A DNA stretch of 32,000 nucleotides from Candidatus Jordarchaeales archaeon (GTDB taxonomy: Archaea > Asgardarchaeota > Jordiarchaeia > Jordiarchaeales > Freyrarchaeaceae), in NCBI GenBank assembly GCA_038858525.1, contig JAWCFL010000010.1:31922-63921 (forward strand), in the 5' to 3' direction. This document shows positions 3,866 through 12,161 of the stretch, piece by piece. The position numbers and the translations under genes are program-made. Below the pieces are notes generated by a model that had not been told where the DNA came from, ran no database searches, and was given only the letters and a program-made list of their open reading frames with translations. The number at the start of each line of letters is the position of its first letter. The first letter of the stretch is position 1.

Positions 3866-5332
3866 TTGGTGGGACGTGAGGAGGCAATAGCTGTTTTTGA
3901 CGTGGGAACAACAGGTGTTCGTGCTTTGTTGTTTAACCTTGAAGGTTCCATCTTGGGAGGAGCTTACGAGGAGTACCCTACTATTTCTGAGCATCCAGGG
4001 CAGTCAGAGCAAGTTCCCGATGTTTGGTGGGAGGCTTCATGTAGGACTATTCAGTCTGCATTGAAGAACGCACATGTTTCTCCATCAGATGTGGTTGCCG
4101 TTAGCGTCTGCACACAGAGGGCGACAATTTTTCCTGTCGATAAGAGTGGGAGACCGCTTTACAGGGCATTAACTTGGATGGATACACGAATGTCTCCTTC
4201 AGCGAAAAAGCTAAAGAAGGTGATAGGGCAAAGAGAAAGCTTGAATAAGGTCCTCTGGATAAAGGACAATGTTCCTTCAGTCTTCGAGCAGACATTTAAG
4301 TTCCTTTTCGTTGACTCCTACTTTTACTTTAAGTTAGCAGGAGTTTTTGTGTCAGATCTTTCCAATGCGTTTTATGGTCCATTTGATGTTGAAAAACTGT
4401 CTTGGAATGAAAAATTAGCTGATGAGGTAGGAGTTCCCCTAGACAAGTGGGTTGAAGTTTACCCGTCGGGAAAGGTTGTCGGCGAGGTGACAGTGGAGGC
4501 TGCAAGGGAAACCCAGCTTAAAGCTGGAACACCGGTAGTCGTTGGTGGGGGAGACCAGCAGTGTTCATGCGTCGGAGTTGGGGCAGTGAGACATGGAATA
4601 GTTAAAGTAACCACTGGAACAGGGACGTTCGTAGATGCACTTATAGATAAGCCGATTTACGACCCGTTCGGCATACTTTTCACGTTACCCCACGTCCTAG
4701 AAGGAAAATGGGTTGTTGAGGGAGTCATTCCGGGGACTGGAAGCATTCTCAGGTGGTTCCGCGACAATTTTGGGCATCTAGAAAAGAAGGTGGCAGAAGA
4801 CGTCGGCGTGGACGCGTACAGCATACTTGAAGACGAGGCGGAAACAGTTAGCCCTGGATCTGACGGGTTGCTTGTAATACCGTTATTCAATTTCGGTAAG
4901 GGCGCTATTTACAATTTGTCTTTTGCACATAGCAGAAGACATATAATCCGAGCGATAATGGAGTGTAACGGGTTTGGAATAAGGGGACTCTTAGATATTA
5001 TTTCGGGAATGGGAATTGCCGTCGAGGAGCTTAGGATAGATGGAGGAGGCGCCAGATCCAAACTTTGGAGGCAAATACAGGCTGACGTAACGGGTAAACG
5101 GATTTCCGTGCCCTGCATTGAGGAAGCTGGAGCGCTTGGGGCGGCGATTCTAGCATCGAAAGGAGTTAAGTTGTTCCCATCTGTAGAGAAAGCGGTAGAG
5201 AGCATGGTTAAAATTTCAGAGGTAAGAGAGCCAAGACACGAGAACAAGAGGGTCTATGACGAAATGCACCCTGTCTTCATGAAGCTCCTGCTTTCTAGCT
5301 ACTCCGAGATTACAGGGCAAAGTCAAAACTGA
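3866..5332 (+). CDS. FGGY-family carbohydrate kinase (xylulokinase/glycerol-kinase-like)
   Basis: DVGTTGVR, TQRATI, WMDTR, GGGDQQ, TTGTG, DGGGARS..W.QI.ADV, EAGALGAA; TTG start with a GGAGG SD. Confidence 0.9.
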   Translation: MVGREEAIAVFDVGTTGVRALLFNLEGSILGGAYEEYPTISEHPGQSEQVPDVWWEASCRTIQSALKNAHVSPSDVVAVSVCTQRATIFPVDKSGRPLYRALTWMDTRMSPSAKKLKKVIGQRESLNKVLWIKDNVPSVFEQTFKFLFVDSYFYFKLAGVFVSDLSNAFYGPFDVEKLSWNEKLADEVGVPLDKWVEVYPSGKVVGEVTVEAARETQLKAGTPVVVGGGDQQCSCVGVGAVRHGIVKVTTGTGTFVDALIDKPIYDPFGILFTLPHVLEGKWVVEGVIPGTGSILRWFRDNFGHLEKKVAEDVGVDAYSILEDEAETVSPGSDGLLVIPLFNFGKGAIYNLSFAHSRRHIIRAIMECNGFGIRGLLDIISGMGIAVEELRIDGGGARSKLWRQIQADVTGKRISVPCIEEAGALGAAILASKGVKLFPSVEKAVESMVKISEVREPRHENKRVYDEMHPVFMKLLLSSYSEITGQSQN

Positions 5333-5387
5333 GAGCAGAAATAATGGAAAAATGGTAAAATATTGTTGTTAAATAAGGATTTTTGAG

Positions 5388-7031
5388 ATGGTGGTCATGG
5401 AGGATTACGATGTTATAGTTATTGGTGGAGGATCAACGGGTACCAGTGTTGCGAGAGACTGCGCTATGCGTGGCTTTAGAACCATTCTCTTCGAGAGAGG
5501 CGACCTTGCGTCGGGCGCTACGGGTGCATGCGCTGGCATGATTAGTGGAGGAACAAAGTATGTGCTCCAGGAGCCGGAGTTCTCGGAGATGTGCACAAGG
5601 GAAGTTGTAACGCTCTCCCGGATAGCTGGGCACATAGTTTTCAGGACACCCATAATAACGGCAATATTGACTGAGGAGGAAATTAAGCTTAGGGCTAGCT
5701 TCGTTGAGAAGTACGGTGCGTTAACAGAGAAGAGGCAGGCAAGCCCGATTCTGATTTTATCTCCTCAAGAGGCTAGGAGCCTTGAGCCCAAATTGAGCAA
5801 TAATATTATTCTGGCAGCTTATTTTGACGAGATGTTCATTGATCCATTTAGGCTGACTGTTCTCACAGCCCTCTCCGCTAAGCAACACGGGGCAGAGATA
5901 AGAACGTACACTGAGGTCGTCGATGTTCTTCATAGGGACGGAGAAGTTTATGGAGTTAGGGTTAAGGATAGGTTAACCGGCAGGGATGAAGAGATAAGAG
6001 GCAGAATTGTAGTTAATGCCGCTGGAGCGTGGGTTCCGGAAATCTCGAGAATAGTGGGAATCAAGCAGACGTTAAGGCTTAACAAGGGGGCGCATGTCGT
6101 CTTCGATAGGAGAATTACGAGGTTCGGGATAATATGCCGAGCATTAGATGGGAGAACAGTATACTTATTCCCCCACGAGACCGGGTCAATTTTGGGCACG
6201 ACCGCAATAGACATATTCACTAGCCCGGATGAAGCTGAAGCGACTTATGATGAGATCGAGTACTTGATTTCAAGTATGGAGATGGCTGTGCCGTCAGTGA
6301 GAGATGCACGCATAGTCAGAGTCATGTGTGGAGTTAGACCGCTAATAGCTCAATGGTGGGTGCCTGAGGGGGATGTAACAAGAAATTTCAGGGTGATTGA
6401 CCATGAGGAACGTGACGGTGTTAGGGGTCTGGTAAGCGTTGAAGGGGGAAAACTTGTTGTCTGCCGAGCTATGGCCGAGAAAATAACTGACCTGGTTTGC
6501 GAGAAGCTTGGAAGAGAAGCCGAGTGCAGAACTCACCTAGAGCCTCTGCCGGGGGCAGACGGAAAAGTTAACGTGGAAGAGATAGCTTCAAGGTATCACT
6601 TTTCACCGCACACTGCTGGGCGGCTTATCTCAAGGCAAGGCACTTTATCCAGTATTGTCCTATCGGAAGCAAGTAACGAAAGAAGTCTCCTTTCAAGTGT
6701 TTGTCTATGCGAGGCTGTTACTGAGGCTGAGCTACGACACGTCATAAGGAACGAGTGGGGGGTGACTCTAGACGCCCTGAGGAGACGAACTAGGATGGGT
6801 ATGGGTCCATGCCAAGGATTCTCCTGCGGATTTAAAGCTATGGCGATTCTAGCTGAGGAGAGGGGGATGGGAGTTGAAGAGGCTTTTAGAGAGCTTGAAA
6901 GGTTTCTAGCCGAAAGATGGAGAGGGCACATTGTTGTTTTAAGGGGAAGCCAGCTCAGCGAGTATGAGATGACGCAGGCGGCTTATGCCTGTGTTGGGTC
7001 AATCGACATGAAAGTCGGTGAGGAGGAGTGA
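5388..7031 (+). CDS. glpA: Anaerobic glycerol-3-phosphate dehydrogenase subunit A (FAD, C-terminal BFD-like Fe-S domain)
   Basis: IGGGSTG..ARD.AMRG, GATG, NAAGAW, GVRPL, GGKL, and C-terminal CLCE...RTRMGMGPCQGFSC. Confidence 0.9.
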   Translation: MVVMEDYDVIVIGGGSTGTSVARDCAMRGFRTILFERGDLASGATGACAGMISGGTKYVLQEPEFSEMCTREVVTLSRIAGHIVFRTPIITAILTEEEIKLRASFVEKYGALTEKRQASPILILSPQEARSLEPKLSNNIILAAYFDEMFIDPFRLTVLTALSAKQHGAEIRTYTEVVDVLHRDGEVYGVRVKDRLTGRDEEIRGRIVVNAAGAWVPEISRIVGIKQTLRLNKGAHVVFDRRITRFGIICRALDGRTVYLFPHETGSILGTTAIDIFTSPDEAEATYDEIEYLISSMEMAVPSVRDARIVRVMCGVRPLIAQWWVPEGDVTRNFRVIDHEERDGVRGLVSVEGGKLVVCRAMAEKITDLVCEKLGREAECRTHLEPLPGADGKVNVEEIASRYHFSPHTAGRLISRQGTLSSIVLSEASNERSLLSSVCLCEAVTEAELRHVIRNEWGVTLDALRRRTRMGMGPCQGFSCGFKAMAILAEERGMGVEEAFRELERFLAERWRGHIVVLRGSQLSEYEMTQAAYACVGSIDMKVGEEE

Positions 7032-8361
7032 AAAATTGATTGAGACAGAGATCCTCGTTATAGGTGGCGGAGTGGCTGGGCTACTAGCCGCAACCAAAGC
7101 TACAGACGAAAAATTGGAAGTGACGGTCATCGACAAGGGTTCAGGAGCCAGTTATCAGTCGTCTGGAGTAATTGACGTTATGGGGTGCCCTCTGGGAGAA
7201 GCCACCTTAAAACCCATTGAGGGGATCGCTCAGGTAATCGAGTGTTCGCCGTCGCATCCATACTCTGTTATTTCGAGTGAGAGGAACGTAACTAACGTTA
7301 TTAAGGACGCTATCAGATATCTAACGAGCATGGCTTCTAATCGTGGAGTCGAATTTAAAGGAGAAATTGAGAGAAACGTTGTTCTTCTAAATACCATTGG
7401 TAGTTTTAAGTTAACCTGTTTTTACCAATCAACGATGGACAGGGGAGTATTGCATAAATTGGAGGGGGCATCGTTACTCGTCACAGGCTTTAAGGGCTTA
7501 GTTGGATTTAACGCGCGCTTTTGCTCCTCTAGCTTCAAGCACTTCGCATCAAAATTTAACATTGAGCTAAGAAAGACGTCTAGTACTGAACTTTCGCTTC
7601 CAAGTTTAAGAGAATTCAACTTGACAATTATAGAATTAGCAAGAATGATGGATGAAGATGATTTCAGGAAAGATTTGGCTAAAAAACTGGAAACTGAAAT
7701 AGCCGTAAATGACGTCTCACATGTAGCTCTCCCAACACTTGGACTAAAGAAGCCCTACGAAAACATGAGGATATTTGAGGAGGAGACGGGTACTAGCGTA
7801 TTTGAACTTGTTTCGCCACCCCCATCGGTACCAGCCCAGAGACTAATGGAGGCGCTTGAAGAGGAAGCTATTGAAAGAGGCGTAAGAATTTTTAGAGGCT
7901 ACAAAGCGGTTGGGTTTGAAGGGGAAGGAAGAAGCATTAAGAGCGTTACACTCGCGTCAGGAGAGAAGCGTTTTCCTGCAAAAGCTAAAGCCTACATTTT
8001 GGCTACGGGAAAATTCATCGGAGGAGGAATAGTAGAGGAAAGAGACAAAGTAAAGGAGACTGTGTTCAACTTGCCCTTATACGATGAAAAAGGGGAGCCG
8101 CTCAAGAGACAAAATATTTCGCGGCTTCTCGCTAAGTCTCCCTTTCCACGAGAAGGACACCCCCTCATGGGGTGCGGAGTGAAAGTTAACGCCCAGATGA
8201 AGCCTGTGGTGAATGATGAAGTCGCATATGATAATCTTTTTGCTGCAGGATCAATAATTTCAGGCTACAATTACGTGAGGGAGAAAAGCGGTATGGGCGT
8301 CGCGGCAGTTACAGGCTACATAGCGGGGATGAACGCGGCAACACATGTAGAAGGCGGGTGA
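7018..8361 (+). CDS. glpB: Anaerobic glycerol-3-phosphate dehydrogenase subunit B; start may be TTG at 7036
   Basis: IGGGVAG, GASYQSSGVIDV, PPSVPAQRL, LATGKFIGGG, NLFAAGS, SGMGVA; directly follows glpA. Confidence 0.88.
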   Translation: MRRSEKLIETEILVIGGGVAGLLAATKATDEKLEVTVIDKGSGASYQSSGVIDVMGCPLGEATLKPIEGIAQVIECSPSHPYSVISSERNVTNVIKDAIRYLTSMASNRGVEFKGEIERNVVLLNTIGSFKLTCFYQSTMDRGVLHKLEGASLLVTGFKGLVGFNARFCSSSFKHFASKFNIELRKTSSTELSLPSLREFNLTIIELARMMDEDDFRKDLAKKLETEIAVNDVSHVALPTLGLKKPYENMRIFEEETGTSVFELVSPPPSVPAQRLMEALEEEAIERGVRIFRGYKAVGFEGEGRSIKSVTLASGEKRFPAKAKAYILATGKFIGGGIVEERDKVKETVFNLPLYDEKGEPLKRQNISRLLAKSPFPREGHPLMGCGVKVNAQMKPVVNDEVAYDNLFAAGSIISGYNYVREKSGMGVAAVTGYIAGMNAATHVEGG

Positions 8362-9584
8362 GTTCTATGAGGAGGAAGGAGCTTGAACATATAGACAAGG
8401 TTCTCGCCGAGGAAAAAATAGTAGTTTTTTCTCCTTATGAGGATGAAATTTATAGTGAAATAGAAAAATGCCAGAATTGCTCTTTGTGCCTTACGTTTTG
8501 CCCCGTCTTCGAAGCTACAGGCGAGTTTTACCCTGGACCGCGGGGGATAGCTGACGAACTTTCTAGAGATGTAAGAGAATTCTGGAGGGCGAGTAGTATA
8601 GTCTACATGTGCACTTTATGTGGCCGCTGCCAGGAAAGGTGCCCAGTTAACGTCCCAATACCTGAAGTAGTCATGCTTCTCAGGTCGAAAATATTCGTTC
8701 AGAGACCTGACCTTGTGCCAGAGGGACTTAAAGTTCTCCTAGAAAACGTTTCAAGGTACGGCTACATTTTTGAGCCCATGAATCCTGAGGAAAGGGAGGA
8801 AAGTCTTAGGGGGAGACTGGAAAGGATCGGTTTACCTTTAAGAGGCGATCCGCCTCTTAGGAGTGGACTGGTAGCTTACTTTCCGGGCTGTCAGGCTGAA
8901 ACTAGGTTGCTTGAAGTTAAAGAGGCTGGGAAACTTGTTCTAGAAGCCTTCGACGTGGATTATGGGATCCCTGAAAAGTGGAAATGTTGCGGTCTTCCTG
9001 TAAGGTTGATTGGTGACTCAGCAATGGCTGACGAGCTTCAGCGTAGCTTTCTCGAAGAAATGGAGAGAATGAACGTGACTGATGTTGTTGTTACTTGCGC
9101 GGGGTGCGCTTCGGAGTTAAAATCGGCAACTAAGCGGCTGGGTTCAGGCATCCGTGTAAGGCACCTAGTTGAGCTTCTTTTCGAAGAAGTAGGTGTTGAG
9201 ACTATAAGCAGGAAAGCTCGTGTTAGCGACAAAGTTAAAGTTACGCTTCATGAGCCTTGCCATTTAAGCAGACACATTGGAAGGTATACTATCGATTACG
9301 CGGAGGAAATACTCAGGGCTTTGCCGAATGTTGATTACGTCGGCATGCGGGGGGCTGACGAGTGTTGCGGCGCTGGGGGACTTCTTAAGTTTCACAATCC
9401 ATTCGTTTCTGCAACTATAAGGAACAAAAAACTTGAGAAAATTTCAAGATCTGGAGCTGAGGTTGTGGTGGCTCCATGCCCTCTTTGCTCGGTCAACATA
9501 TCCGAGGGGGCCGCTAGAAAAAGGGTTAGTGTTGGAGTGGATGACCTTGCAGTCTTCCTAGCTAGAAGGATATACTCGGAGTAG
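8358..9584 (+). CDS. glpC: GlpC-like Fe-S subunit (2x[4Fe-4S] plus two CCG domains)
   Basis: CQNCSLCLTFCP, CTLCGRCQERCP, YFPGC, CCG, HEPCH, CCGAGG, CPLC; 4-nt overlap with glpB. Confidence 0.8.
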   Translation: MSSMRRKELEHIDKVLAEEKIVVFSPYEDEIYSEIEKCQNCSLCLTFCPVFEATGEFYPGPRGIADELSRDVREFWRASSIVYMCTLCGRCQERCPVNVPIPEVVMLLRSKIFVQRPDLVPEGLKVLLENVSRYGYIFEPMNPEEREESLRGRLERIGLPLRGDPPLRSGLVAYFPGCQAETRLLEVKEAGKLVLEAFDVDYGIPEKWKCCGLPVRLIGDSAMADELQRSFLEEMERMNVTDVVVTCAGCASELKSATKRLGSGIRVRHLVELLFEEVGVETISRKARVSDKVKVTLHEPCHLSRHIGRYTIDYAEEILRALPNVDYVGMRGADECCGAGGLLKFHNPFVSATIRNKKLEKISRSGAEVVVAPCPLCSVNISEGAARKRVSVGVDDLAVFLARRIYSE

Positions 9585-9596
9585 GAGGTTTAAGTT

Positions 9597-11030
9597 TTGA
9601 GCAACAAGAAGTTGGGTGATTTCTGGAGGAACGTTGTCTATGAAGAGCTAGTCAGCATAGTGGGGCAAGAGAATGTTCACTGCGATGACGCAGATTTACT
9701 TTGTTATTCACGCGACACGTGGCAGCTGACTGTCCCCTGGATTAAGGGGGGAGGAAAGCTTCCCGAACCTGACTTTATAGTACATCCTGAAAGCGCGGAG
9801 CAGGTATCGGAAATAGTTAAGTTAGCTAACAGATTCAAAATACCTCTTATACCCTTCGGGGGAGGAGCTGGAGTCTGTGGCGGAACGATCCCAGTCTATG
9901 GAGGAATCATAGTTGACCTAAAAAAAATGGACAAGATAGTTAGGGTTGACCACAAATCGCTACTAGTAACTGTTCAGCCGGGCATCCTAGGGGAGATTCT
10001 GGAAAGAGAACTGAACAGGATGGGTTACACGTTCCCTCACTACCCTGCATCCATGTATTGCTCAACGGTAGGCGGCTTCGTAGCTTGCCGCTCGGCAGGC
10101 TCGCTTTCATCCAAATATGGAAAAATAGAGGATATGGTTGTTGGGCTTGAAGTCGTCATACCAACAGGTGAGATAATAAGAATAAAACCTGTTCCCCGAT
10201 CATCCACGGGGCCGGACTTAAAGCAATTATTCATAGGATCAGAAGGAACGCTTGGAATAATAACGGAGGTTACATTAAAGATAAAGCTTCTCCCAGAGGA
10301 AAGGAGATTCAGGGCATTCATATTCAAGGACCTTCATTCAGGGATAGAATCGGTCATTAAGATCTTCCGGAGAGGGCTGAAGCCATGTGTAATACGCCTC
10401 TACGACTATCTTGATGCGCAGTTCACCCTTAAAGGAAAAGCAGAGATCCCTGAGGGAGGCTCGTACTTAATATTGGGTTTCGACGGCATGAAAGAAATGG
10501 TTGATTTAGAGGAAAAAACGGCTACAAGGATTTGTTTGGATGAAGGAGGCGCCGAAGTGGACAGAGAACTAGCAGAGCACTGGTGGAAACACAGGTATGA
10601 CATGTACTACCCTGACGCTTTCAAGTCGTCTTATAGCATAATAGCCGACACTGTGGATGTTGCGGCACCATACGACAAGCTCGAAGAGCTCTACTGGACC
10701 ATTAAAAGGACTGTTGAGTCGAGGAATCCAGGTGTGACCATGATGGCGCATTTCTCACACTTCTATGAGGATGGAGGTTCGATATACATGATCTTCTTCA
10801 CTCAGCAGCAGAACCATGAAAAGGCAGTGAGAGTTTACAGCTCTGTTTGGAGAGACGCTCTAGAGGCATGTCTAAAAGTTGGCGGGACAATAAGCCACCA
10901 CCATGGTGTAGGACTAGTTAGGGCGGGATGGATGCACAAGGAGCACGGAGACGCTTTTAGTGTTCTGAAGGCAATTAAAAGGGCATTGGACCCAAACAAC
11001 ATTATGAATCCCGGGAAGCTTGGACTATAA
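9597..11030 (+). CDS. FAD-linked oxidase of the VAO/PCMH family, alkyl-dihydroxyacetonephosphate synthase (AGPS)-like
   Basis: PFGGG, STVGGFVACRSAG, KYGKIEDMV, PRSSTGPD..LFIGSEGTLGIIT, PCVIRLYD, GSIY and SHHHGVG. The HHHGVG motif is AGPS-type, not the GEHG of D-lactate dehydrogenases. Confidence 0.8.
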   Translation: MSNKKLGDFWRNVVYEELVSIVGQENVHCDDADLLCYSRDTWQLTVPWIKGGGKLPEPDFIVHPESAEQVSEIVKLANRFKIPLIPFGGGAGVCGGTIPVYGGIIVDLKKMDKIVRVDHKSLLVTVQPGILGEILERELNRMGYTFPHYPASMYCSTVGGFVACRSAGSLSSKYGKIEDMVVGLEVVIPTGEIIRIKPVPRSSTGPDLKQLFIGSEGTLGIITEVTLKIKLLPEERRFRAFIFKDLHSGIESVIKIFRRGLKPCVIRLYDYLDAQFTLKGKAEIPEGGSYLILGFDGMKEMVDLEEKTATRICLDEGGAEVDRELAEHWWKHRYDMYYPDAFKSSYSIIADTVDVAAPYDKLEELYWTIKRTVESRNPGVTMMAHFSHFYEDGGSIYMIFFTQQQNHEKAVRVYSSVWRDALEACLKVGGTISHHHGVGLVRAGWMHKEHGDAFSVLKAIKRALDPNNIMNPGKLGL

Positions 11031-11048
11031 GGAAAAGGGAGGCAAAGG

Positions 11049-12161
11049 ATGAGCGCAGACCCTATAGTTTTATGTGGAATAGAATGTATGAAGATGTGCC
11101 GCTTTGTTTGTGTCGCCGCGAACCAGCTTAAGCTTGAAACGGTAACTCCCTACGGGAAATGCTTCTTAGCATACTACTTACGCAAGGAAGCGATAACCGG
11201 AAGGGGAAGAGTTGCGGAGGCTATGTATCAGTGCGCGACTTGTGGTTTGTGTAAGGAGTGGTGTTTGCCGAAAGTTGATATTCCAGAAATAGTTAAGGAG
11301 GTAAGGGCGAAGCTAGTTAAAGATGGAAATGCTCCTGAGCCCACGCTCGAAATAGGCAAGAAGACGAAGAGCGAAAAGAACCCCTATGGTGAGCCGCATG
11401 AGAAAAGATTCGCTGCACTTAACAAGAAAGGTAAAAGTAAAATGGGAAGCGTAGCTTACTTTGTCGGCTGCACCTCGGCTTACAGGCAGCTGAACATAGT
11501 AAATGCTATGGCTAAAATACTTGAACACACTGAGGGAGAATTCACATTAATAGATGATGAGTGGTGTTGCGGGGCTCCACTTTTGTCGACGGGACATATA
11601 GAGCTGGCTAGTGAGCATGCTGAGCATAACAAGAAGGCGATCGAGGACTCAGGATGCAGCGTTGTCGTTACGTCATGCGCAGGATGCTACATGGCGCTCT
11701 CCCGGTATTACCCAAAAATGGGGTTCCCGCTAAAAGTCGAGGTCGTGCACCTAAGCCAGTACTTGTGGAGTGCGATAAGCGAGGGGAAACTTAAATTGAA
11801 AAAATCGGGGAAAGGTGGTGTGAAAGTGACTTATCATGATCCTTGCCATCTGGGGAGACACATGGGTGTCTACGACGAGCCGAGAAGCGTTCTGAGTAGC
11901 ATACCTGGCGTTCAGCTTGTTGAAATGGATTGGAACAGGAGAAATTCGAAGTGTTGTGGTAGCGGCGGAGGGCTCCAGCTGAACTTTCAGGAGCTGGCTC
12001 GAAGGATAGGCATAGAGAGGATTAGTGAGGCCGTGGCGACAGGAGCAGAATTTTTAGTCACGGCATGCCCGTTCTGCAAAAATCAGCTTGAAAGCGTAGC
12101 GGAAGGAAAAATAAGGGTTTACGACCTCGCCGAAATAGTCGTTGAGCACTTGAAGGTCTAG
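11049..12161 (+). CDS. CCG-domain Fe-S oxidoreductase (GlpC/HdrD-like)
   Basis: CGIECMKMCRFVC, CATCGLCKEWC, FVGC, WCCG, YHDPCHLGR, CCGSGGG, ACPFC. Confidence 0.85.
   Translation: MSADPIVLCGIECMKMCRFVCVAANQLKLETVTPYGKCFLAYYLRKEAITGRGRVAEAMYQCATCGLCKEWCLPKVDIPEIVKEVRAKLVKDGNAPEPTLEIGKKTKSEKNPYGEPHEKRFAALNKKGKSKMGSVAYFVGCTSAYRQLNIVNAMAKILEHTEGEFTLIDDEWCCGAPLLSTGHIELASEHAEHNKKAIEDSGCSVVVTSCAGCYMALSRYYPKMGFPLKVEVVHLSQYLWSAISEGKLKLKKSGKGGVKVTYHDPCHLGRHMGVYDEPRSVLSSIPGVQLVEMDWNRRNSKCCGSGGGLQLNFQELARRIGIERISEAVATGAEFLVTACPFCKNQLESVAEGKIRVYDLAEIVVEHLKV

What the first reader, a model, noticed from the sequence alone, without database searches (positions are those of the whole stretch)
3866..12161. 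FGGY kinase-GlpABC-AGPS-like-CCG operon: possible ether-lipid (alkylglycerol) pathway
Seen: six tightly packed co-oriented genes. The flavoprotein keeps motifs equivalent to eukaryotic alkyl-DHAP synthase catalytic elements: xIRLxD Arg, xIY Tyr and HHHGVG. Known: AGPS exchanges acyl for alkyl on DHAP through a flavin adduct, GlpABC oxidises sn-glycerol-3-phosphate to DHAP, and archaeal lipids normally use G1P. Inference: a route of (alkyl)glycerol to phosphate ester, to (alkyl)-DHAP, to ether cleavage or exchange, with the extra CCG protein as electron acceptor. This would be anaerobic ether-lipid scavenging, or alternatively G3P-based ether synthesis, and is relevant to the lipid divide. Similar kinase/AGPS-like clusters exist in other prokaryotes, so the novelty is the function rather than the gene set.
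Basis: partly seen in the sequence, partly recalled or inferred. Interest (0 to 1): 0.7.

Follow-up and report, generated by a model that had tools for sequence, protein, structure and literature searches.

The report
Asgard kinase, GlpABC, AGPS-like dehydrogenase operon
A hot-spring Asgard archaeon has a six-gene operon that joins an unusual sugar-type kinase and a glycerol-3-phosphate dehydrogenase to a relative of the ether-lipid enzyme AGPS with its own iron-sulfur partner. The relative is most likely an unstudied redox enzyme for a small phosphorylated glycerol-like compound, not an ether-lipid synthase.

Summary
Six co-oriented genes at 3866-12161 are separated by gaps of -14 to +55 nt. 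They encode an FGGY kinase, GlpA, GlpB, a GlpC-type Fe-S protein, an AGPS-like flavoprotein and a second Fe-S/CCG protein.

The flavoprotein lies on the AGPS side of its superfamily. R267, Y397 and H434-436 align with Arg419, Tyr578 and His615-617 of guinea-pig AGPS. The family profile scores AGPS 364-410 bits against 296 for D-lactate dehydrogenase.

It fails other AGPS criteria:
- it has no N-terminal AGPS domain;
- it has a dedicated 2x[4Fe-4S]+2xCCG partner, which is adjacent in 17 of 20 Asgard loci, fused in a Bacillota homologue, and predicted to bind (0.93, best control 0.00);
- the genome shows no acyltransferase or fatty-acyl reductase, but does have G1P dehydrogenase and GGGP synthase.

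The conserved core is kinase + AGPS-like + Fe-S. It recurs beside a G3P dehydrogenase of either type, and E. coli (ygcU/ygcE) and P. aeruginosa (PA3026-24) have counterparts. The kinase is not GlpK: it lacks Glu84 and the Tyr135 loop, and a GlpK-like kinase with a canonical GlpABC lies elsewhere in the genome.

Best reading (0.55): a flavin/Fe-S dehydrogenase for the kinase's phosphorylated glycerol-like product. Salvage of substituted glycerol or ether lipid is not excluded (about 0.2). This scan has met the same module before on other Asgard and bacterial DNA.

The parts
3866..5332 (+). FGGY-family kinase that is not a GlpK equivalog. It is the kinase of the conserved kinase/AGPS-like/Fe-S module.
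   Evidence: FGGY_N and FGGY_C are present. The best NCBIfam scores are LsrK 279, XylB 275 and GlpK 212, all far below their cut-offs. Against E. coli GlpK it keeps R83, W103, D245, Q246 and F270, but has Ala for E84 and an 8-residue deletion that removes the Y135 loop. Thirteen Asgard orthologues lack Glu84, and twelve of them have the full 8-residue deletion. An orthologue lies in the cluster in 14 of 20 Asgard loci.
5388..7031 (+). GlpA-type FAD subunit of an anaerobic glycerol-3-phosphate-type dehydrogenase; the divergent paralogue in this genome.
   Evidence: DAO+DAO_C+Fer2_BFD. TIGR03377 scores 450 against a cut-off of 553. It is 38% identical to the canonical GlpA on contig C1, which passes the cut-off with 581. 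Orthologues of 47-87% identity are linked to the AGPS-like gene in other Asgards.
7018..8361 (+). GlpB-type subunit.
   Evidence: FAD_binding_2. TIGR03378 scores 195.9 against a cut-off of 174. It overlaps glpA by 14 nt and glpC by 4 nt.
8358..9584 (+). GlpC-type Fe-S subunit with a 2x[4Fe-4S] ferredoxin domain and two CCG domains.
   Evidence: Fer4_8 and CCG x2. It is 29% identical to the second CCG protein.
9597..11030 (+). AGPS-like flavoprotein of the VAO/PCMH fold, in the prokaryotic YgcU-type branch. Active-site equivalents are R267 (nt 10395-10397), Y397 (10785-10787) and H434-H436 (10896-10904).
   Evidence: PDB sequence search: AGPS 230 and 212 bits, D-LDH 170. Family profile: AGPS 410 and 364, LDHD 296. 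AF2 model has pLDDT 95. Foldseek gives AGPS TMq 0.90 at 30% identity. VIA gives LDHD Z 43 and AGPS Z 41, the latter aligned to guinea-pig residues 156-658 only. GlcD-type E, H..H and GEH are replaced by R, H..Y and HHH. E. coli YgcU is 33% identical over the full length. An orthologue occurs in 165 of 301 Asgard genomes.
11049..12161 (+). Dedicated Fe-S partner of the flavoprotein, GlcF/GlpC-like. Its N-terminus has Cx3Cx3Cx3C and CxxCxxCxxxC motifs, followed by two CCG domains.
   Evidence: CCG x2. All 18 cluster Cys except C65 are invariant in 19 orthologues. It is adjacent to the flavoprotein in 17 of 20 Asgard loci. It is fused to the flavoprotein in Bacillota P0160/P0272. Predicted complex: ipSAE 0.93, best control 0.00. 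The interface is partner residues 1-74 on the FAD domain.

Best explanation
The operon encodes two separate flavin/iron-sulfur dehydrogenases and one kinase. GlpABC oxidises sn-glycerol-3-phosphate, or a close analogue, to DHAP.

The AGPS-like flavoprotein forms a heterodimer with the downstream 2x[4Fe-4S]+2xCCG protein. The substrate reduces the FAD, and electrons leave through the two ferredoxin-type clusters that sit against the FAD domain. They then pass to the CCG clusters and on to an unidentified acceptor.

Its substrate is most likely the phosphorylated product of the operon's own non-GlpK FGGY kinase. That would be a small glycerol-like polyol or ketol phosphate, bound as AGPS binds the DHAP moiety, so that both branches deliver DHAP-type carbon and electrons.

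Shown here: the gene set, the AGPS-type active-site residues, the Fe-S partnership (adjacency, fusion, predicted complex), the conservation of the module, and the non-GlpK pocket of the kinase.

Inferred: the direction of electron flow, the phosphorylated C3-like substrate, and the link between the kinase product and the flavoprotein.
For: 1. AGPS-type site rather than a 2-hydroxyacid site. R267, Y397 and HHH replace the E / H..H / GEH metal site of GlcD and D-LDH. The family profile prefers AGPS by 70-110 bits. The genome's GlcD-like paralogue shows the reverse preference. The tree split has SH-aLRT 100.

2. Redox wiring.
- The Fe-S/CCG gene is adjacent in 17 of 20 diverse Asgard loci.
- It is fused in a Bacillota protein that keeps SHHHGVG.
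- A deltaproteobacterial locus has a GlcE-like/Fer4 gene plus a CCG gene next to it.
- ETF and ETF-QO-like genes lie in the E. coli ygc cluster.
- The cluster cysteines are invariant.
- The predicted complex scores ipSAE 0.93 in three runs that share at least 96% of contacts, with partner pLDDT at least 90 and best control 0.00. That mark was reached by 58 of 80 solved complexes and 2 of 110 mismatched pairs. The cluster-bearing N-terminus lies on the FAD domain. Fused forms exist, so this pass resembles that of a split gene.

3. Kinase link.
- The FGGY orthologue is in the cluster in 14 of 20 loci and abuts the pair directly, without GlpABC, in 6.
- A PfkB kinase is fused to the flavoprotein in P0193, inside a sugar operon.
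- E. coli YgcE lies near YgcU.

4. Soluble-substrate hints. E. coli has MFS transporters, an SDR and a GlpP-like regulator in its cluster.

5. Not the plain glycerol route. A GlpK-like kinase with all the glycerol ligands, and a GlpA that passes its equivalog cut-off, lie elsewhere in the genome. Deleting the P. aeruginosa counterpart PA3026-24 gave no growth defect on glycerol (PMC8151288).

6. Link to glycerol-phosphate and DHAP chemistry. A G3P dehydrogenase of either the GlpABC type or the DAO-BFD/Pyr_redox_2 type sits beside the module in Asgards and Bacillota.
Against: - No substrate has been tested for any member of this branch, so 'small and phosphorylated' is inference.
- Persistent co-occurrence with a G3PDH-type enzyme fits a sequential pathway on one substituted-glycerol substrate (the rival reading) as well as two parallel branches.
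- The kinase has lost exactly the ligands of glycerol's distal hydroxyl. That would also suit a bulky, possibly lipidic, substituent.
- In P. aeruginosa the module is co-regulated with a lipid kinase and a phospholipase.
- The Loki-type module carries an alpha/beta hydrolase.
- The final electron acceptor of the CCG proteins in this archaeon is unknown.
- No bona fide AGPS sequence could be put into the tree, so whether this branch is sister to true AGPS or contains it was not resolved.
Confidence: 0.55

Rival explanations
1. Anaerobic salvage of a substituted glycerol. The kinase phosphorylates a 1-O-substituted glycerol (alkyl, acyl, prenyl or glycosyl). The GlpABC-type enzyme oxidises it to the substituted DHAP. 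The AGPS-like enzyme then uses AGPS-type enolate/flavin-N5 chemistry to release the substituent and give DHAP. The Fe-S partner keeps or resets the flavin redox state, or carries off electrons from an oxidative variant of the cleavage.
For: - The AGPS catalytic trio is conserved.
- The kinase keeps the catalytic Asp and the proximal ligands but loses E84 and the Y135 loop. This opens the distal end of the pocket, and the loss is conserved across orthologues.
- The trio kinase + G3PDH-type + AGPS-like persists even where the dehydrogenase type is replaced by a non-orthologous one. That is what a sequential pathway predicts.
- A canonical glycerol operon exists separately.
- P. aeruginosa PA3026-24 is co-induced with a lipid kinase and a phospholipase, and is not needed for growth on glycerol.
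- Loki-type loci add an alpha/beta hydrolase and a protein with weak likeness to prenyl-binding alpha/alpha toroids.
Against: - AGPS chemistry is redox-neutral, yet the Fe-S partner is nearly obligatory and sometimes fused.
- There is no counterpart of AGPS residues before about 156 (guinea pig) or 89 (Dictyostelium). From my own knowledge of the AGPS structures, that part contributes to the lipid entrance.
- The E. coli and PfkB-fusion contexts look like soluble sugar or polyol pathways.
- No lipase, transporter or lipid-binding gene lies in this window.
Confidence: 0.2
2. A glycolate, D-lactate or other D-2-hydroxyacid dehydrogenase of the GlcDF type, which is what pipelines call it. On this reading it sits beside the glycerol genes only by co-location.
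For: - The fold is as close to D-LDH as to AGPS: VIA Z 43 against 41.
- The best NCBIfam model is GlcD, at 261 bits.
- A GlcF-like Fe-S partner is typical of GlcDEF and Fe-S-linked lactate dehydrogenases.
Against: - The GlcD score is far below its cut-off of 568.
- The metal and base residues of that family (HxGD, GNxH, GEH) are replaced by SHxY, xxY and HHH.
- The profile prefers AGPS.
- The genome already has three GlcD-type paralogues with the canonical motifs.
- Linkage to the kinase and to G3PDH is conserved across phyla.
Confidence: 0.07
3. A true alkyl-DHAP synthase that makes G3P-type ether lipids in an Asgard archaeon.
For: The AGPS-type residues and the closest PDB sequence matches point this way. 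DHAP supply from GlpABC lies in the same operon.
Against: - No PF01553 acyltransferase and no FAR-length reductase were found in a genome that is 92.7% complete.
- G1P dehydrogenase and GGGP synthase are present, which indicates ordinary archaeal lipids.
- The N-terminal AGPS domain is missing.
- The protein has an Fe-S partner.
- E. coli, which is not known to make ether lipids (my own knowledge), has a homologue.
Confidence: 0.03

Closest known systems
Alkyl-dihydroxyacetonephosphate synthase (AGPS/ADPS, EC 2.5.1.26; PDB 2uuu, 4bby)
   Same: It has the same VAO/PCMH two-domain FAD fold, with Foldseek TMq 0.90 at 30% identity. Arg, Tyr and HHH sit at the positions of Arg419, Tyr578 and His615-617. 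AGPS is the best PDB sequence match, both for the single sequence and for the family profile.
   Different: It is 477 aa against 584-658. Nothing aligns to guinea-pig residues 1-155 or Dictyostelium 1-88, and the cap insertion is shorter. It has a dedicated Fe-S/CCG electron-transfer partner. The genome shows no GNPAT or FAR partners. AGPS catalysis leaves the substrate's redox state unchanged (Nenci 2012, as cited in PMC13019191).
E. coli K-12 YgcU (b4463) and the unassigned ygc cluster (ygcNOPQRSUW, yqcE, ygcE)
   Same: YgcU is 33% identical over the full length, with RLYD, the Tyr and HHHGIG conserved. An FGGY kinase (YgcE) lies in the cluster, and so do electron-transfer proteins. It falls in the same clade against GlcD-type enzymes.
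   Different: E. coli has ETF (YgcQR) and an ETF-QO-like pair (YgcNO) where the Asgard operon has a CCG Fe-S subunit. There is no G3P dehydrogenase in the E. coli cluster. YgcE is only 23% identical to the Asgard kinase. No paper giving YgcU a function turned up in the search.
P. aeruginosa PA3026-PA3025-PA3024 operon of the GliR (PA3027) regulon (PMC8151288)
   Same: According to the paper, it holds an FAD-binding oxidoreductase assigned to the AGPS step, a GlpD homologue and an FGGY kinase in one operon. The function is unknown, and deleting the operon does not affect growth on glycerol.
   Different: The dehydrogenase is GlpD-type, not GlpABC. No Fe-S/CCG subunit is reported. [quoted passage not shown] I could not fetch PA3026 to confirm its similarity myself.
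GlcDEF glycolate dehydrogenase and Fe-S-linked D-lactate dehydrogenases
   Same: The architecture matches: a flavoprotein of the same superfamily paired with a GlcF-type 2x[4Fe-4S]+2xCCG subunit.
   Different: The active-site metal and base residues are replaced. There is no GlcE subunit here. The GlcD model scores below its cut-off.
GlpK-GlpABC anaerobic glycerol pathway (E. coli; predicted for Atabeyarchaeia and Freyarchaeia in PMC11291895)
   Same: It has the same GlpA/B/C architecture and an upstream FGGY kinase.
   Different: The kinase lacks two of the glycerol ligands. GlpA and GlpC score below their equivalog cut-offs. This genome has a more canonical copy elsewhere. The published prediction does not mention the AGPS-like/Fe-S pair in the passages I read.

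Membership tests
AGPS (EC 2.5.1.26) | VAO/PCMH-type FAD-binding domain plus cap domain | tested here: met
   Pfam FAD_binding_4 and FAD-oxidase_C. The AF2 model has pLDDT 95. Foldseek TMq is 0.90 to 4bby and 5ae2.
AGPS (EC 2.5.1.26) | Catalytic Arg419, Tyr578 and His615-617 (guinea-pig numbering) | tested here: met
   R267, Y397 and H434-436 align to these residues. R267, Y397 and H436 are at least 90% conserved in 63 homologues. The middle His is Gln in 93 of 282 collected homologues.
AGPS (EC 2.5.1.26) | N-terminal domain preceding the FAD domain (about 155 residues in guinea pig, about 88 in Dictyostelium) | tested here: not met
   The profile alignment starts at Dictyostelium residue 90 and guinea-pig residue 168. 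VIA aligns the model to guinea-pig 156-658 and Dictyostelium 89-586. The protein has only about 55 residues before the FAD domain.
AGPS (EC 2.5.1.26) | Redox-neutral catalysis with no dedicated electron-transfer partner | tested here: not met
   The Fe-S/CCG partner is adjacent in 17 of 20 loci, fused in P0160/P0272, and predicted to bind with ipSAE 0.93 against a best control of 0.00. The catalysis itself cannot be tested with these tools.
AGPS (EC 2.5.1.26) | Pathway partners that supply acyl-DHAP and fatty alcohol (GNPAT-type acyltransferase, FAR) | tested here: not met
   PF01553 was not found. PF07993 hits are only 326-348 aa SDR-size proteins. The genome is 92.7% complete.
AGPS (EC 2.5.1.26) | Hydrophobic tunnel for the alkyl chain | not testable with these tools
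GlcD / D-lactate / D-2-hydroxyacid dehydrogenases | Metal and base residues in HxGD, GNxH and GEHG, and Glu in the E(L/M)xD motif | tested here: not met
   The alignment with E. coli GlcD and three paralogues from this genome shows SHFY, SIY, HHHG and RLYD at those positions.
GlcD / D-lactate / D-2-hydroxyacid dehydrogenases | Reaches the curated GlcD equivalog score | tested here: not met
   TIGR00387 scores 261 against a cut-off of 568, and NF008408 scores 142 against 897.
Prokaryotic YgcU-type AGPS-like flavoproteins (uncharacterised) | Full-length similarity with the R/Y/HHH motifs, forming a clade apart from GlcD-type enzymes | tested here: met
   It is 33% identical to YgcU across residues 11-475, 239 bits. 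The clade is separated from the GlcD group with SH-aLRT 100.
Prokaryotic YgcU-type AGPS-like flavoproteins (uncharacterised) | Linkage to a sugar-type kinase and to electron-transfer proteins | tested here: met
   Asgard loci, E. coli, the PfkB fusion and the Bacillota Fe-S fusion next to a G3PDH.
Glycerol kinase GlpK | Curated equivalog score and the glycerol ligands R83, E84, W103, Y135, D245 and F270 (E. coli numbering, from my own knowledge of the GlpK structures) | tested here: not met
   TIGR01311 scores 212 against a cut-off of 590. E84 is replaced by Ala and the Y135 loop is deleted. R83, W103, D245, Q246 and F270 are kept.
Anaerobic G3P dehydrogenase GlpABC | Three-subunit architecture: GlpA with DAO and a BFD 2Fe-2S domain, GlpB, and GlpC with Fer4 and 2 CCG domains | tested here: met
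   Pfam. GlpB TIGR03378 scores 195.9, above its cut-off of 174.
Anaerobic G3P dehydrogenase GlpABC | GlpA and GlpC reach their equivalog cut-offs | tested here: not met
   GlpA scores 450 against 553, and GlpC 88 against 280. The paralogue on contig C1 passes for GlpA with 581.

The most novel reading that the evidence does not exclude
The operon is an oxygen-independent route for breaking down glyceryl ethers, such as alkylglycerols or archaeal prenyl-glycerol remnants. A dedicated kinase phosphorylates the substituted glycerol. A GlpABC-type enzyme oxidises it to the substituted DHAP. An AGPS-type flavoenzyme, wired to an Fe-S subunit, then cleaves the ether bond through a flavin-N5 adduct. 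This would be a first anaerobic ether-lipid catabolic pathway. It would also mark AGPS chemistry as ancient, and as present in the archaeal relatives of eukaryotes.
Probability: 0.12. Interest if true: 0.85.

Novelty: new variant of a known kind. Interest (0 to 1): 0.55.

Why it matters
The AGPS active site is known only from a redox-neutral ether-lipid synthase. Here the same residues sit in an enzyme hard-wired to iron-sulfur clusters. That enzyme occurs in about half of the sampled Asgard genomes (165 of 301) and has counterparts in E. coli and, by annotation, in P. aeruginosa. None of these has a known function.

Pipelines call it GlcD or 'alkyl-DHAP synthase'. Ancestral-gene reconstructions have counted that KEGG label as evidence of ether-lipid synthesis: the LUCA study lists the enzyme among recovered lipid genes (PMC11383801). 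The features found here argue against reading the label that way for this branch.

Solving its substrate would fill a recurrent gap in glycerol and glycerolipid metabolism. It would show what Asgard archaea do with glycerol-derived carbon. It would also show whether AGPS chemistry arose from a dehydrogenase.

Tried and rejected
1. Phylogeny with bona fide AGPS. No tool gave me eukaryotic or myxobacterial AGPS sequences as usable records. The best 150 representatives all score above 319 bits, while this protein scores about 230 against AGPS, so true AGPS cannot be among them. P0207, which has an N-terminal extension, is less AGPS-like than the query. I used PDB profile scores and a tree rooted on GlcD-type sequences instead. 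A preprint reports that AGPS carries too little phylogenetic signal.

2. Tunnel analysis. Model coordinates are not exposed to scripts.

3. Literature.
- A search for AGPS tunnel and HHH residues returned irrelevant papers.
- The DOI of the 2012 AGPS paper is not held.
- 'ygcU' returned no functional study.
- 'AGPS + archaea + G3PDH' returned nothing relevant.

4. The idea that the AGPS-like/Fe-S pair is merely a substitute G3P dehydrogenase. I rejected it as the sole reading, because the pair co-occurs with a G3PDH-type enzyme in Asgards and Bacillota, and genomes without GlpABC next to it still hold a GlpA-like gene elsewhere.

5. The idea that the operon is the organism's ordinary glycerol operon. 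I rejected it for this genome, because a more canonical kinase-GlpABC set lies on contig C1. In Atabeyarchaeia and Thorarchaeota, however, the AGPS-linked GlpABC is the only one found.

6. Co-absence check. In 12 Asgard genomes without the flavoprotein, only one had a GlpA above 40% identity and only one a kinase above 40%. The groups were defined by the feature itself, so I give this little weight.

7. RNA-library contigs leave 12 of 30 bins uncovered. Contigs cannot show absence.

8. A contig joint 6876>12098 in run X10 has only 22 letters on its shorter side. I treated it as unreliable.

Full report
**What is there.** The + strand of the window carries six ORFs at 3866-5332, 5388-7031, 7018-8361, 8358-9584, 9597-11030 and 11049-12161. 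Their junctions are +55, -14, -4, +12 and +18 nt, and a convergent ArsA/Get3 gene follows.

Pfam and NCBIfam give the following:
- an FGGY kinase;
- GlpA (DAO + DAO_C + BFD-type 2Fe-2S);
- GlpB;
- a GlpC-type protein (ferredoxin dicluster + 2 CCG);
- an FAD_binding_4/FAD-oxidase_C flavoprotein;
- a second CCG protein.

The closest homologues of the flavoprotein are from Candidatus Jordarchaeales and other Asgard archaea. Near-identical DNA occurs in hot-spring metagenomes from several studies. Contigs from one RNA library, 95-99% identical to the window, cover 18 of 30 bins. They bridge the kinase-GlpA and GlpC-flavoprotein junctions. That is a hint of co-transcription, not proof.

**The flavoprotein is AGPS-like, not GlcD-like.**
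- By sequence, its best solved relatives are alkyl-DHAP synthases: 230 bits to Dictyostelium 2uuu and 212 to guinea-pig 4bby. D-lactate dehydrogenase scores 170 and a glycolate oxidase/D-LDH 163.
- A profile of 63 family members widens the gap to 410 and 364 against 296.
- A GlcD-type paralogue from the same genome behaves the opposite way: LctD 301, LDHD 273, AGPS 130.
- R267, Y397 and H434-436 align with Arg419, Tyr578 and His615-617. The Tyr578Phe entry differs from wild type at exactly the Y397 column.
- I aligned it with E. coli GlcD and the genome's three GlcD-type paralogues. The family replaces the Glu of E(L/M)xD by Arg, HxGD...GNxH by SHxY...xxY, and GEHG by HHHG. The metal/base site of the D-2-hydroxyacid dehydrogenases is therefore gone.
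- In a maximum-likelihood tree, all AGPS-like prokaryotic sequences separate from the GlcD group with SH-aLRT 100. These include E. coli YgcU, the Fe-S fusions and the PfkB fusion.
- The fold itself does not discriminate. The AF2 model (pLDDT 95) matches mammalian AGPS at TMq 0.90 and mouse LDHD at 0.85. VIA gives Z 43 for LDHD and 41 for AGPS.

**It is not a bona fide AGPS.**
- The alignments begin at guinea-pig residue 156-168 and Dictyostelium 89-90. The N-terminal AGPS domain has no counterpart, and the cap insertion is shorter.
- The genome (2.09 Mb, 92.7% complete) has a G1P dehydrogenase that passes its equivalog cut-off, 518 against 413.
- It also has a GGGP synthase, so ordinary archaeal lipids are expected.
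- No PF01553 acyltransferase was found, and no reductase of FAR length.
- AGPS leaves the redox state of its substrate unchanged (Nenci 2012, as cited in PMC13019191). This protein, in contrast, has a dedicated electron-transfer subunit.

**The Fe-S partner.**
- The 370-aa product of 11049-12161 has an N-terminal Cx3Cx3Cx3C motif, a canonical CxxCxxCxxxC motif and two complete CCG domains.
- All these cysteines except C65 are invariant in 19 Asgard orthologues.
- In 20 loci taken from diverse Asgard families, the gene abuts the flavoprotein gene in 17 and lies 3 kb away in one more.
- A Bacillota protein (P0160/P0272) fuses the two and keeps SHHHGVG.
- A deltaproteobacterial locus has a GlcE-like/Fer4 gene and a CCG gene after it.
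- The predicted heterodimer scores ipSAE 0.93, 0.94 and 0.93, against a best control of 0.00. At least 96% of contacts are shared between runs, and the partner's pLDDT is at least 90. That mark was reached by 58 of 80 solved complexes and 2 of 110 mismatched pairs.
- The interface is partner residues 1-74, the part that carries both ferredoxin-type clusters, on the FAD-binding domain.
- Fused forms exist, so this pass is akin to that of a split gene. It shows likeness, not measured binding.

**The conserved module and its company.** An orthologue of the flavoprotein (E <= 1e-90) is present in 165 of 301 sampled Asgard genomes, and in 60 of 90 high-quality ones.

In the 20 loci:
- an orthologue of the window's kinase is in the cluster in 14;
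- GlpABC lies between the kinase and the flavoprotein in 8;
- the kinase joins the flavoprotein/Fe-S pair directly in 6 (L032, L037, L038, L039, L041, L044).

Two families (L037, L042) carry the other type of G3P dehydrogenase next to the module: DAO+BFD, a Pyr_redox_2 protein and a small ORF. The same arrangement flanks the Bacillota fusion. The core is therefore kinase + AGPS-like + Fe-S. It keeps company with a G3P-type dehydrogenase even when that enzyme is replaced by a non-orthologous one.

Outside the archaea:
- E. coli YgcU is 33% identical over the full length and keeps all three motifs.
- YgcU lies with the FGGY kinase YgcE, ETF (YgcQR), an ETF-QO-like pair (YgcNO), a GlpP-like antiterminator, an SDR and two MFS transporters.
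- A metagenomic protein fuses a PfkB kinase to the flavoprotein, inside a DeoR/aldolase/isomerase/ROK/ABC sugar operon.
- P. aeruginosa PA3026-PA3024 is described as an AGPS-step oxidoreductase, a GlpD homologue and an FGGY kinase. It is co-induced with a lipid kinase and a phospholipase, and its deletion does not affect growth on glycerol (PMC8151288). I read the paper but could not fetch the protein.

**The kinase is not GlpK, and the operon is not the only glycerol system here.**
- No FGGY model reaches its cut-off.
- Against E. coli GlpK, the kinase and its module orthologues keep R83, W103, D245, Q246 and F270. None of the 13 orthologues has Glu84, and an 8-residue deletion removes the Tyr135 loop in all but one of them, which has a shorter gap. 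From my knowledge of the GlpK structures, these are the ligands of glycerol's distal hydroxyl.
- Another kinase, at G000:C1:53020-54561, keeps every one of these residues. It is followed by a GlpA that passes the equivalog cut-off (581 against 553), a GlpB and a GlpC.
- This matches the 'extra GlpABC operon' reported for Freyarchaeia (PMC11291895).
- That canonical GlpA was found only in the two Jordarchaeales genomes among the five searched. The one Atabeyarchaeia and two Thorarchaeota genomes have only the AGPS-linked GlpA, but they do have an unlinked GlpK-like kinase.

**Interpretation.** The best-supported reading (0.55) is a two-subunit flavin/Fe-S dehydrogenase. It would act on the phosphorylated product of the module's own kinase, a small glycerol-like compound bound as AGPS binds the DHAP moiety. 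It would work beside GlpABC. The Fe-S wiring, the kinase fusions and the soluble-substrate contexts support this reading.

It explains why kinase, G3PDH-type enzyme and AGPS-like enzyme always travel together. It also explains why the kinase pocket is opened at its distal end. It fits the lipid-flavoured company in P. aeruginosa, and the alpha/beta hydrolase in Loki-type loci. It does not explain the Fe-S partner or the missing N-terminal domain.

A plain 2-hydroxyacid dehydrogenase (0.07) and a true biosynthetic AGPS (0.03) are unlikely. The remaining probability covers functions not considered here.

**Limits.** No substrate is known for any member of this branch, and the electron acceptor is unknown. 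No true AGPS could be placed in the tree, and tunnel geometry could not be examined. This scan has met the same module before on other Asgard and bacterial DNA, with similar conclusions. Those notes are not independent evidence.

Noticed in passing
G000:C1:53020-58261 (locus L049:6021-11262): A second, more canonical glycerol operon lies in the same genome. It holds a GlpK-like kinase with all the glycerol ligands, a GlpA that passes TIGR03377 (581 against 553), a GlpB and a GlpC, with no AGPS-like pair. Among five genomes searched, the canonical GlpA was found only in the two Jordarchaeales.
   Followed up: partly
L038:6820-13645, and likewise L039 and L041 (Asgard family f9): In this family the module reads: unknown 498-aa protein, AGPS-like, Fe-S/CCG, FGGY kinase, alpha/beta hydrolase. 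The order is conserved in three genera. The 498-aa protein has no Pfam hit. It has a weak Atlas likeness to prenyltransferase/squalene-cyclase alpha/alpha toroids (feature score 0.91; TM 0.46 by query and 0.68 by hit). This is a lead only.
   Followed up: partly
P0193 / L022:2556-5033: A PfkB sugar kinase is fused to an AGPS-like flavoprotein that keeps SHHHGVG. The gene lies in a DeoR / DeoC-type aldolase / cupin GPI / ROK / ABC-transporter operon, followed by a 432-aa ORF with no Pfam hit.
   Followed up: partly
P0122, P0123, P0137 and other representatives of 750-1000 aa: Many of the closest representatives are fusions of a full AGPS-like flavoprotein with a second FAD_binding_4 domain, which is GlcE-like. 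I did not look at their contexts.
   Followed up: no
Window residue H435 (nt 10899-10901), and homologues such as P0029: The middle His of the HHH loop is Gln (SHQHG) in 93 of 282 collected homologues, for example the Thorarchaeota sequence P0029. The full HHH triad is therefore not required in this branch.
   Followed up: partly
window 11823-11860: A 38-nt stretch inside the CCG gene also matches a second, unrelated 40-kb contig of run X7. It gives loose ends in two DNA runs. It is probably a short conserved piece shared with a paralogue.
   Followed up: no
G000:C35:3752-5161, C14:2654-4096, C2:18629-20080: Three further FAD-oxidase_C paralogues are present. Two have canonical GlcD/D-LDH motifs. 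The third (C2) is divergent and lacks both the GEHG and the HHHG motifs.
   Followed up: partly
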